From Candidatus Omnitrophota bacterium (lineage in GTDB: Bacteria; Omnitrophota; Gorgyraeia; Gygaellales; Profunditerraquicolaceae), in NCBI GenBank assembly GCA_018895075.1, contig JAHIOW010000039.1, forward strand, positions 1 to 41,687: a DNA stretch of 41,687 nucleotides, read 5' to 3'. This document shows, one piece after another, positions 33,001 to 36,000 of this stretch (position 1 is the first letter of the stretch; every line of letters begins with the position of its first letter). The position numbers are program-made.

Positions 33001-36000
33001 CCAGGGAACAATTAGATGCCAGGCTTGCCCGAGAATTTAAGTTAAATACCAAGAAGAGTATTAGAAATACGCTCAGGAGTTTATTGCCCGGGAGCCTGGT
33101 AGATGTATTCATAGATATGGCAGAAATTATCCCGGATAAAAAAGTCAGTCAGATTACCCGCACAGAACGCCAGAGAGTAATTTCGCTGCTTAAGAATTTA
33201 CGTTTGAATATCACTCGCTCAAGGCCTATAGAGGAGGCAATGATTACCCGGGGAGGACTGGATTTAAGAGATATCAATCCCCGCACCATGGAATCGCGCC
33301 TGATTAAAGGCTTATATTTTGCCGGCGAGATGATAGATGTCGATGCCGATACCGGAGGATTTAATTTGCAGGCGGCATTCTCTACGGGTTATCTTGCCGG
33401 AGAAAGCGCCGCCTTAAACTAAGATGCGAAAAATATATTTAGCCTCTGATTCCCGGGCACGCAGGAAACTATTGGATATATTCGGTTTAAAATTTAAGGT
33501 AATATCCGCCAGGGTAAGGGAAGAAAGAAAGAGAGGCGGCTCCTCTTATGCGGCGTTGGTAAAAAAGAATGCCCTGTTAAAAGTCCAGAGTGCGGCAGGA
33601 AGGGTTAAAAGCGGGGTTATCATCGCAGCGGATACAATAACGGTCCAGGACAAAAAGATATTCGGCAAGCCAAAAAATTTACAGGAAGCTCAGCAGATGC
33701 TAAAAAGGCTCTCGCAAAAGCCGCAGTGGCTTTATACCGGTTTAGCCGTGATGGACAAGGATAAAGGCGTAACCAGGCTTAGCTTTGAAAAGACCAAGGT
33801 TTATATGGATAAATTGAACGATAAACAGATAAAGAATTATTTTGCGGTTGTTTCTCCACTGGATAAGGCCGGTAGTTTTGATATCCAGGGCAGGGGGGCT
33901 TTTTTTATCCGGCGTATTGAAGGCTGTTTCTATAATGTCGTGGGCCTGCCGCTAAGAAAATTATACCGTATGTTTCAGGAGATGGGAATAAAGGTATTTA
34001 CATTTTTGTTGTGTGCCTTTGGCCTTGCCTCCTGTTTGATTATTACCTCTGGCTGTTCAACTGAATATAATATCGTCACCGGCAAAGAAGAACTTTTTTA
34101 TTACAGCACTGAGAAAGAAGTGCAGATGGGTAAGTCTATCAGGCAGGAAGTAGAAAAGGAATACAAGCCCGTAGATGACCCGTTAATACAAAAGCGGGTA
34201 GAGGATATTGGTTTTAAGATTGCAAGTGTCTGCGATAGAAAAGACATAGATTATCACTTTAAGGTATTAGCAGAGGATGAGGAGGTCAATGCCTTTGCCT
34301 TGCCCGGGGGTTTTGTCTATGTAAACAAGGCCTTGATAGATAAGGTAACCAATGATGACGAATTGGCTTGTATCTTAGGCCATGAGGTAGGCCATATCGT
34401 AGCCCGGCACAGCATAAAGAAACTTCAGGGCGTTATGGGCTACTCTATATTAAGGGTATTGATTGCCGCTGTTCCCCAGACTGCCGAGGCAGGCAATGCT
34501 GCGGATATCGCCTTTACGGAGATAATGCTGGGGTATTCAAGGGAAGATGAGTTTTTAGCTGACCGGTTAGGCGCCCGTTATGCAAAATTAGCCGGTTACA
34601 ATCCTTATGGCATGATTACGTTCCTGGAGAAATTACAGGAGATAAACAAGAGAAAACCGCTAAGGCCCAAGACATATTTTAAGACCCATCCCTATGTCCC
34701 CGATAGAATCCGGGTAGTAAAACAGGAATTAGGAGAAAAGATCGACTTTGTGGATTTTATCAATATCGAAGAGGCCCAACAGTAGCATTCCCGCCCTTTA
34801 ATTTGAGAAAGACGTTGCCTTTCTTGAGATACTGCGTTATAATAAAAGTTCATCGTGCATTAATCTAGCACTACGCCAGCTGAAATTAAAGACGGGGCTT
34901 TCGGTTTTTTGATCTAGGGGGCAAAATAAGATGTTTGTTTTATCTAACCTTTTGGTTACCTTAGCGCGTATTCTGGATATTGCCCTGGCTATATTATATT
35001 GGCTTATCCTTATTCGCGCAATCATCAGCTGGGTAAATCCGGATCCCTACAATCCCATAGTGCAGTTTTTATATAAGGCCACTGAACCCATACTCTATCC
35101 GATAAGAAAACTCTTGCCTTCAGGGCTTAAGATGGGAATAGATATTTCGCCAATAATCGCCTTTCTGGCCATAATATTTTTGAAATCCTTTTTGGTTAAG
35201 ACCCTCGTGGATTGGGCAATAAGGTTACATTAAAAATACATTGAAGGAGGCCTAGTGTGTGGCAGTTAAAAATAAGGATGTATCTTTTATTGGTAGTTTT
35301 ATTCGGGATTATCTATATGGTTATGACTATCATCGGCGTACGCATGGGCATAGCCAATTTTTACTTTTATCTTTTGCTTTCTTTAGGGCTGATGTTTTTA
35401 CAATATATGATTGGCCCCAAACTGGTAGAGTGGTTGATGCGGGTTAAATATGTCAAACCAGAGCAATATCCACAACTGTATGCAATGGTCCAGGAGTTAT
35501 CCCAAAAAGCCGGGATCCCCAGGCCGCGGGTGGGGATAGCCCAGATATCTATACCCAATGCCTTTGCCTTTGGCAGGAGCTTGTCTGATGGCAGGGTTTG
35601 CGTTACCGAAGGGTTAATGCGCCTGTTAGATGAAAATGAGTTAAGGGCAGTACTGGGCCATGAACTGAGCCATCTGAAGAATCGCGATGTTTTAACTATA
35701 ACCATACTGTCGGTTATCCCTATGATTCTCTATCGTATTGCCTGGCACTTTTTTTGGTTTGGAGGAGGCAGGAGGAGGGGGCAAGGAAATGTTGCCTTGA
35801 TTGGCGTGGCCGCCTTCATATTTTATTTTATTACTAACCTCCTGGTCTTATATGCCTCGCGTATCCGGGAATATTTTGCTGATAGAGGTTCTCTGCTTTT
35901 AGGCAATAAGCCGGAGTGGTTGGCTTCGGCTTTGTATAAATTAGTCTATGGTTCAGCCAGGATGAACAAAGAATCTTTTAAGGAAGTTGAGGGCTTGAAG

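What a model noticed while it worked through the whole genome (the two positions that open the first line are those of the whole stretch)
33424..34785. Maf fused to internal lipobox M48 protease
One frame encodes a cytoplasmic Maf nucleotide pyrophosphatase, then a complete lipoprotein signal with lipobox (SGC), then a BepA-like M48 protease, and the fusion is kept across many genera. Signal peptidase II cuts this polyprotein into a membrane-tethered Maf and a periplasmic lipoprotein. A lipoprotein signal used 200 residues into a chain to split one gene into two compartments would be new.
Evidence so far: Pfam Maf 3-186 and Peptidase_M48 256-434. 12 of 20 relatives have the 445-481 aa fused frame, others the free lipoprotein; in 9 of 9 aligned fusions a basic stretch, hydrophobic core and (L/I)(S/A/F)GC lipobox sit between the domains without a stop; full-length 66% identical in G021. 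No report in call 182.
(Added by a program. Inside this text positions count along the whole contig: contig position 1 is position 1 of the stretch shown here. "Call 12" and the like, gene names such as g00115 and contig names such as C1 are that model's own, and its searches are not shown. The text may have been shortened before it was handed on; [...] marks where a part breaks off. The agent that wrote the report below was given it as the finding of a first reader that could run no searches.)

Follow-up and report, generated by a model that had tools for sequence, protein, structure and literature searches.

The report
Enzyme–lipoprotein fusion with mid-chain export signal
In a large group of uncultured Omnitrophota bacteria, one gene joins a cytoplasmic nucleotide-cleaning enzyme to an exported zinc protease through a lipoprotein export signal 190 residues into the chain, and the cell likely makes one long precursor and cuts it at the membrane into two proteins, which would be an unreported way to make a lipoprotein.

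Summary
The fusion is real and conserved; the processing is untested. The 453-aa frame holds a Maf domain (3-186), a basic helix, a hydrophobic stretch, Gly210-Cys211 and an M48 protease. It is fused in 39 of 61 genomes of the order, and Gly-Cys is kept in 118 of 118 distinct junctions. The internal-start rival is weakened, not excluded. Met183 is lost about 22 times, changes like an ordinary Met of the protease, and lacks the codon signature of the true start. 29 of 118 junctions have no usable in-frame ATG. Against this, one lineage that lost Maf appears to start at this ATG. Lgt, LspA, Lnt and SecA are present, and SRP was not found. The junction has the features SecA uses for RodZ. Lgt accepts a GST-prefixed lipobox in vitro, but GST blocked lipidation in vivo. 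The protease lacks BepA's C-terminal half. No report was found in 10 searches; SPase I polyproteins are the recalled precedent. This scan found the same fusion before on other DNA (five notes). Cleaved polyprotein 0.58, internal start 0.22, uncleaved 0.17.

The parts
33424..34785 (+). Fused maf::M48-lipoprotein gene, 453 aa; ATG one base after the stop of the upstream gene
33430..33981 (+). Maf nucleotide pyrophosphatase domain (aa 3-186); S8, R13, E33, K53, D70, K82 conserved
   Evidence: Pfam PF02545 and TIGR00172 over cut-off; conservation; fold match to YhdE 4P0E and Maf 1EX2
33952..33993 (+). Last Maf helix and former Maf C-terminus (aa 177-190), basic; inferred to serve as n-region of the internal signal
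   Evidence: helix 177-186 in the model; net charge median +4 over 118 junctions; split relatives end Maf here
33970..33972 (+). ATG of Met183, the candidate internal start (rival reading)
   Evidence: ATG in 84 of 118 junctions; substitution pattern like Met235; apparent start in a Maf-less lineage
33994..34044 (+). Hydrophobic h-region (aa 191-207), variable in sequence and length
   Evidence: helix 194-207 in the model at low confidence
34045..34056 (+). Lipobox T208-S209-G210-C211; Cys211 is the predicted lipid site and new N-terminus
   Evidence: G and C in 118 of 118 junctions, 113 of 113 proteins parsed, invariant in alignment A1
34189..34725 (+). M48 zinc metalloprotease domain (aa 256-434); HExxH at 320-324 (nt 34381-34395), E376 invariant
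   Evidence: best solved relative 3C37, E 2.3e-39
32178..33422 (+). Upstream HI0933-family flavoprotein gene, abutting the maf start
   Evidence: same neighbour in 7 of 8 split loci, the eighth starts inside maf
31611..32171 (+). Phosphoribosyltransferase gene (PyrE-like; name recalled) heading the run; directly upstream of the free lipoprotein in 7 of 8 free loci
   Evidence: promoter-like site at 31573-31601 (consensus match only)

Best explanation
One reading frame encodes a Maf nucleotide pyrophosphatase, a complete lipoprotein signal and an M48 zinc protease, and it is likely translated as a single precursor whose mid-chain signal is likely threaded into SecYEG, lipidated on Cys211 by Lgt and cut by LspA, which would leave Maf on the cytoplasmic side and a lipid-anchored protease on the periplasmic side. 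Shown: the frame, both intact domains, the invariant Gly-Cys, the split relatives and the processing genes. Inferred: (1) the fusion arose from overlapping maf and lipoprotein genes by a small frameshift that put the lipoprotein's own ATG out of frame, so Maf's last basic helix became the n-region; (2) SecA recognises the internal signal co-translationally, as for RodZ, because SRP was not found in this phylum; (3) Lgt, LspA and Lnt process it normally; (4) Maf stays tethered by the leftover signal or is freed by a signal-peptide peptidase. The two enzymes probably share an operon history, not a task.
For: Lipobox kept: Gly-1 and Cys+1 in 118 of 118 junctions while the h-region varies freely; +2 is never Asp. 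No invariant partner Cys in the protease: C270 is present in 55 of 65. Original start gone: in 6 split loci the lipoprotein ATG lies out of frame inside Maf's last codons. Met183 behaves as a coding residue: ATG in 84 of 118, 22 parsimony steps on 108 tips, no ATG 14-45 codons before the Cys in 29 of 118, no ATG/GTG/TTG in 4, and no compensating ATG (5 of 34 against 22 of 84). Its changes (Ile 18, Leu 5 origins) mirror Met235 inside the protease (Ile 15, Leu 4). The true start is ATG 63, TTG 2 of 65. The true start ranks 1-2 of 445 windows for low GC3 and synonymous identity; Met183 ranks 196 and 399. Two Maf deletions lead into the signal from the position of the Maf start: L039 keeps about 17 Maf residues, and L068 has also lost Met183. 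Uncharged run median 19 in 170 fusions against 15 in 16 unfused orthologs (kin are not independent). lgt, lspA, lnt, secA, yidC, an Omp85 and a LolC/E-like gene are in G000. SRP GTPase: 1 true Ffh in 61 genomes; 6 hits in 201 phylum genomes, the 3 tested being FlhF; SRP RNA 0 of 61. Charge is +4 before and -2 after the signal, the pattern SecA reads in RodZ (PMC5674894, passages and Discussion). Lgt modifies GST-lipoGFP in vitro with GST still attached (PMC4728403, part 1 of 2 of the Discussion).
Against: No direct data on translation, lipidation or cleavage. In L094/L101/L102 (one lineage) maf has decayed with a stop just before the last helix, and the lipoprotein frame opens at the Met183 ATG, so that ATG looks usable as a start. 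Met183 changes at about half the rate in fusions as in the unfused sister clade (0.43 against 0.96; 6th lowest ratio of 54 hydrophobic sites). A crude Shine-Dalgarno score is passed at 26% of Met183 sites against 14% of other internal ATGs. 115 of 118 codons at this site are ones table 11 allows as starts. The same Lgt paper says an N-terminal GST prevented lipidation in living E. coli (Methods passage). Some fusions have uncharged runs as short as 12. Gly-1 serves both Lgt and LspA, so cleavage is not separately shown. LolA was not found in 5 of 5 genomes, so the final membrane is unclear.
Confidence: 0.58

Rival explanations
1. Two in-frame starts: ribosomes also initiate at Met183 (or a nearby codon) and make an ordinary prolipoprotein. 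The full-length product mainly supplies Maf and stays uncleaved or is degraded.
For: From Met183 the sequence reads as a textbook 28-residue lipoprotein signal. A Maf-less lineage opens its lipoprotein frame there. Met is enriched in fusions (141 of 170) against the unfused sister clade (16 of 87), with a halved rate. There is a slight SD excess. GST blocked in vivo lipidation of an internal Lpp signal.
Against: About 22 independent changes, almost all to Ile or Leu and none to GTG in 118; 29 of 118 lack any usable ATG and 4 lack ATG, GTG and TTG. The pattern matches the control Met235. Met92 and Met128 are more conserved. No start-like synonymous signal, where the true start shows one. Unfused Mafs of the same sub-type also have Met there (20 of 21). 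No promoter-like site on the + strand inside maf.
Confidence: 0.22
2. A single-pass membrane protein that is not cut: Maf inside, protease outside, with the Cys either diacylated by Lgt only or unmodified.
For: The topology is ordinary for RodZ-type proteins (PMC5674894). The hydrophobic run is longer in fusions. The strict lipobox pattern is met in only 78 of 118. LolA was not found.
Against: An unmodified anchor would not explain Gly-Cys kept in 118 of 118 while every neighbouring position varies. Repeated fission and Maf loss inside the fused clade (13 separate placements of 21 unfused Mafs) argue against a need for a trans-membrane link. I saw no sequence feature that would let Lgt act but stop LspA (inference).
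Confidence: 0.17
3. Artefact, or a recent neutral read-through with a vestigial lipobox.
For: All genomes are metagenome bins, and the two functions have no obvious link.
Against: Fused in 3 families down to 53% identity. The 150 best listed junction matches in 234 genomes have no stop. Independent runs confirm the junction. Active-site residues of both domains are conserved.
Confidence: 0.03

Closest known systems
Bradyrhizobium japonicum FbcH (cytochrome b + c1 precursor) - recalled; not found described in the library (listings)
   Same: One bacterial gene, two proteins joined by an internal signal sequence and separated by a signal peptidase.
   Different: FbcH uses signal peptidase I and its halves are subunits of one complex. 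Here the site is a lipobox (Lgt/LspA), the front part is a soluble cytoplasmic enzyme, the halves look unrelated, and cleavage is not shown.
E. coli RodZ (PMC5674894; passages and Discussion read)
   Same: Long cytoplasmic N-terminal part, basic residues, internal hydrophobic segment, acidic periplasmic start; SRP-independent targeting by SecA.
   Different: RodZ stays a whole membrane protein; no lipobox or cleavage is described in what I read.
Engineered GST-Lpp24-GFP substrate (PMC4728403; passages and part 1 of 2 of the Discussion read)
   Same: Lipobox placed behind a folded domain and accepted by Lgt in vitro.
   Different: Artificial, not lipidated in vivo, LspA not tested in what I read. 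The natural signal here is longer and preceded by a basic helix.
Short M48 peptidases: PDB 3C37; E. coli LoiP (lipoprotein); protease domain of BepA
   Same: M48 fold, HExxH; 3C37 is the best hit, E 2.3e-39. Free orthologs in the order have a normal N-terminal lipoprotein signal.
   Different: Below the NCBIfam cut-offs for BepA (106.7/570) and LoiP (66.7/365); lacks BepA's C-terminal half; signal is internal.
Maf/YhdE nucleotide pyrophosphatases (B. subtilis Maf 1EX2, E. coli YhdE 4P0E)
   Same: TIGR00172 over cut-off; TM-score 0.85-0.89 to the targets; catalytic residues kept.
   Different: S-x-S-K-A-R instead of S-P-R-R at the N-terminal motif, also in unfused relatives; C-terminus runs into a signal peptide.

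Membership tests
Maf family NTP pyrophosphatase | Family HMM over cut-off and Maf fold | tested here: met
   PF02545 168 bits; TIGR00172 154.5 against 117.15; Foldseek 4P0E, 1EX2
Maf family NTP pyrophosphatase | Signature S, R, E, K, D, K residues (list recalled) | tested here: met
   R13, K53, D70, K82 invariant; S8, E33 in 90% or more of 87 sequences; aligned to B. subtilis Maf
Maf family NTP pyrophosphatase | Pyrophosphatase activity | not testable with these tools
   needs assay
Peptidase M48 | HExxH plus downstream Glu ligand, family HMM | tested here: met
   PF01435 120 bits; H320, E321, H324, E376 invariant
BepA (YfgC) | Protease plus C-terminal half; equivalog cut-off | tested here: not met
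   NF052400 106.7 against 570 bits, model 42-251 of 483 only
LoiP | Equivalog cut-off | tested here: not met
   NF052399 66.7 against 365 bits
Canonical bacterial lipoprotein (Sec/SPII) | Basic n-region, hydrophobic h-region, lipobox with invariant Cys (PMC8048626, passages) | tested here: met
   G-C in 118 of 118; strict pattern in 78 of 118; Thr at -3 in this genome
Canonical bacterial lipoprotein (Sec/SPII) | Signal at the N-terminus of the translated chain | tested here: not met
   Cys is residue 211 of the frame; no conserved internal start found; met only under the internal-start rival
Canonical bacterial lipoprotein (Sec/SPII) | Lgt, LspA (and Lnt) encoded | tested here: met
Canonical bacterial lipoprotein (Sec/SPII) | Diacylglyceryl-Cys and cleavage shown | not testable with these tools
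   needs labelling or proteomics
Signal-peptidase-processed polyprotein (FbcH type, recalled) | Two functional proteins in one frame joined by an internal signal | tested here: met
Signal-peptidase-processed polyprotein (FbcH type, recalled) | Second protein made only from the precursor (no separate start) | tested here: inconclusive
   favoured; opposed
Signal-peptidase-processed polyprotein (FbcH type, recalled) | Cleavage shown on protein | not testable with these tools
   no protein data

The most novel reading that the evidence does not exclude
A natural bacterial polyprotein matured by the lipoprotein pathway. In an SRP-less phylum, SecA routinely engages signals deep inside a chain, so a lipobox 210 residues from the start is lipidated and cut by LspA, and one gene yields a cytoplasmic enzyme and a periplasmic lipoprotein. 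Lipoprotein signals then need not be N-terminal, and N-terminus-only predictors miss a class of lipoproteins.
Probability: 0.5. Interest if true: 0.8.

Novelty: new variant of a known kind. Interest (0 to 1): 0.63.

Why it matters
The review I read describes lipoprotein signals as N-terminal (PMC8048626, passages). A natural, widely conserved case of Lgt/LspA acting behind a 190-residue folded enzyme would extend that rule. It offers ready natural variants (with and without Met183, short and long h-regions, split and fused) to test what lets an internal signal be exported in vivo, where a GST-Lpp fusion fails. It also links to how Omnitrophota target membrane proteins without detectable SRP. 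If the internal-start rival holds, it is only an in-frame gene overlap and of modest interest.

Tried and rejected
Shine-Dalgarno scoring was inconclusive: the true maf start itself passes in only 20%, genome first-ATGs in 43%. No 16S 3' end was found in G000, so a generic anti-SD was used. Near-cognate start idea (ATT/ATC/ATA at site 183): rejected as special evidence because control Met235 shows the same Ile bias. Disulfide as the reason for Cys211 conservation: no invariant periplasmic partner. Other internal lipoboxes in G000: one hit among 790 ORFs of 150 aa or more, in a polytopic membrane protein, not a parallel case. The pattern required L/V/I/F/M at -3 and so would miss this gene itself. 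Single origin of the fusion: the Maf tree groups all 170 fused sequences (support 0.906), but the M48 tree does not resolve it, so I do not claim it firmly. Whether 'PRTase then free lipoprotein' is ancestral is also open. mis-parsed 3 junctions; counts are from the corrected. One search parsed 113 of 120 proteins; the 7 dropped lacked my anchor motifs (6 visibly keep Gly-Cys, one was not read to the Cys). The AlphaFold model is low-confidence across the linker (pLDDT under 50 at 194-197 and 208-227; pTM 0.48) and says nothing on domain contact. No RNA holder listed. Literature: 10 searches. One search found no paper with 'internal lipobox', 'internal lipoprotein signal', 'cryptic lipobox', 'embedded lipobox' or 'second lipobox'. 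Searches listed nothing evidently on this gene or on SRP loss in Omnitrophota (listings only). Subscription and older papers are not in the library; supplements were not read. No complex prediction was sent, as no binding is claimed.

Full report
Observation. Window 33424-34785 (+) is one 453-codon frame starting one base after the stop of an HI0933-family gene. Pfam gives Maf at 3-186 and Peptidase_M48 at 256-434. Between them lie Maf's last helix (177-186 in the model), an uncharged stretch (191-207) and Thr-Ser-Gly-Cys at 208-211. Contigs from three of four independent runs span the junction without gaps. Source names of close relatives say Candidatus Omnitrophota; NCBI labels one 'Maf and M48 domain-containing protein'. 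Both domains look active: Maf R13, K53, D70, K82 and protease H320, E321, H324, E376 are invariant in 87 sequences. The protease is a short M48 closest to PDB 3C37. It fails the BepA and LoiP cut-offs and lacks BepA's C-terminal half.

Distribution. Of 61 genomes of the order, 39 are fused, 8 split but adjacent, 8 carry the free lipoprotein, 1 has maf deleted in frame and 5 are unresolved or lack it. In the own family 32 of the 33 relatives with a match are fused; the other ends at a contig edge. Across 234 genomes, 209 match the junction query. The 150 best listed matches have no stop inside; 83 weaker ones were not listed. The best 120 protein hits to the junction all carry both Pfam domains.

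How the fusion arose (inferred). In six split loci Maf ends in a G-[IV]-D-V-F-type tail and the lipoprotein's ATG sits out of frame inside those last codons. Fused genes keep a recognisable remnant of that tail and run straight into the hydrophobic stretch, so a small frameshift removed both Maf's stop and the lipoprotein's own start. The Maf tree puts all 170 fused sequences in one clade (support 0.906), with 21 unfused Mafs nested in 13 places. The M48 tree does not resolve a single origin but nests the Maf-less loci among fused ones. Repeated fission and loss suggest the link is tolerated rather than needed; some of the 21 may be assembly or calling errors.

Is the lipobox still used? With 'fused' defined only as the frame running 45 or more residues past Maf's last conserved motif, 135 loci give 118 distinct junctions (12 candidates were set aside: 10 unfused Mafs and 2 with a stop). 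All 118 have Gly-1 and Cys+1; -3 is Leu in 89; the strict consensus is met in 78; +2 is never Asp. The h-region varies in length and sequence. No invariant periplasmic Cys partner exists. lgt, lspA and lnt are in the genome. I infer that Cys211 is still lipidated. These loci are relatives found by similarity and are not independent.

Precursor or internal start? Against an internal start at Met183: ATG in 84 of 118, the rest ATT 13, ATA 9, ATC 6, TTA 3, CTG 2, TTG 1, with 22 parsimony steps on 108 tips. 29 junctions have no ATG and 4 no ATG, GTG or TTG 14-45 codons before the Cys, and spare ATGs are not more common where it is lost (5 of 34 against 22 of 84). Met235, inside the mature protease, shows the same pattern (74 Met, 23 Ile, 7 Leu against 75, 27, 6). 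The real start is ATG or TTG in 65 of 65. The real start is the strongest synonymous signal in the gene (rank 1-2 of 445 windows), while Met183 ranks 196 and 399. Two deletions of maf lead into the signal from the place of the maf start, and one has lost Met183 (L039, L068). For an internal start: in L094, L101 and L102 (one lineage) maf has decayed, a stop precedes the last helix, and the lipoprotein frame opens at that ATG. The site changes at 0.43 against 0.96 per unit tree length in fused and unfused clades. A crude SD score passes at 26% against 14% for other internal ATGs. On balance the Met is a Maf residue that can be recruited, and the precursor is the likelier source in most lineages.

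Can the cell handle such a precursor? No Ffh was found in G000 (88% complete). Only 1 of 61 order genomes has a full-length SRP GTPase, a lone ffh in G019. 6 of 201 phylum genomes had a hit, and the 3 tested are FlhF (only 15 candidates per genome were scored there). SRP RNA was found in 0 of 61. The named controls rang in 14 of 14 and 12 of 14. SecA and YidC are present. Natural SRP loss is reported for Leptospira, Dehalococcoides and SAR86 (PMC4758666, two passages). In E. coli, SecA targets RodZ co-translationally using basic residues before an internal hydrophobic segment and acidic residues after it (PMC5674894, passages and Discussion). The junctions here have median net charge +4 before and -2 in the 30 residues after the Cys, and a longer uncharged run than unfused orthologs (median 19 against 15, overlapping ranges). 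Lgt modifies a lipobox behind GST in vitro, but GST prevented lipidation during expression (PMC4728403): the enzyme is permissive and targeting is the hurdle. A LolC/E-like gene is present just under its cut-off, and LolA was not found in 5 genomes, so the final membrane is open.

Verdict on mechanism. Cleaved polyprotein 0.58; internal start 0.22; uncleaved or Lgt-only membrane protein 0.17; artefact 0.03. No step from targeting to cleavage is shown.

Comparison with what is known. It works like a signal-peptidase-processed polyprotein (Bradyrhizobium FbcH, recalled; viral polyproteins, search listing) with RodZ-like targeting. It is a member of the Maf and M48 families, not of BepA or LoiP, and fails the 'N-terminal signal' criterion for a canonical lipoprotein. 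Ten searches found no account of this gene or of a natural internal lipobox (listings only unless stated). The library lacks most subscription papers. PMC8048626 was seen as passages. This scan noted the same fusion five times on other genomes, an analogous EpmB-lipoprotein fusion, and SRP loss in Omnitrophota; these are unchecked AI notes, not support. I class it as a new variant of a known kind, interest 0.63.

Noticed in passing
G000 and relatives G001-G060; phylum sample: Ffh, FtsY and SRP RNA were not found in this order or in nearly all of 201 Omnitrophota genomes searched, while secA and yidC are present.
   Followed up: partly
L113:2205-3740 (G019:C8): A lone ffh over the TIGR00959 cut-off in a genome where no FtsY or SRP RNA was found; transfer or bin contamination.
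   Followed up: partly
L094, L101, L102: HI0933 gene gone and maf decayed to a remnant; the lipoprotein frame opens at the former Maf Met183.
   Followed up: partly
L039 (G058:C79) and L068: In-frame deletions of maf that leave the lipoprotein signal behind a few residues from the maf start region.
   Followed up: partly
L038 (G047:C76): Secondary split by frameshift, with a new ATG and a Shine-Dalgarno-like sequence for the lipoprotein.
   Followed up: partly
h-region of L015, L028, L032, L051, L101: The hydrophobic stretch is often built from short tandem DNA repeats, in fused and free genes alike; lengths cluster at 33-34 residues from Maf's last motif to the Cys.
   Followed up: no
P0090: A 509-aa fusion with a long polar insert just after the Maf tail; possibly a small mobile element inside the signal.
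   Followed up: no
L062, L070, L076, L012 upstream of maf: Short palindrome-like inserts between the HI0933 stop and the maf start.
   Followed up: no
G000:C53:25622-26332: A second M48 paralog, 46% identical over query residues 201-437.
   Followed up: no
window 35257-36231: HtpX-like M48 protease with an EF-hand-like match at aa 262-284, two genes downstream.
   Followed up: no
window 3228-4409; G000, G019, G021, G023, G043: LolC/E-like gene present but LolA not found in 5 of 5 genomes.
   Followed up: no
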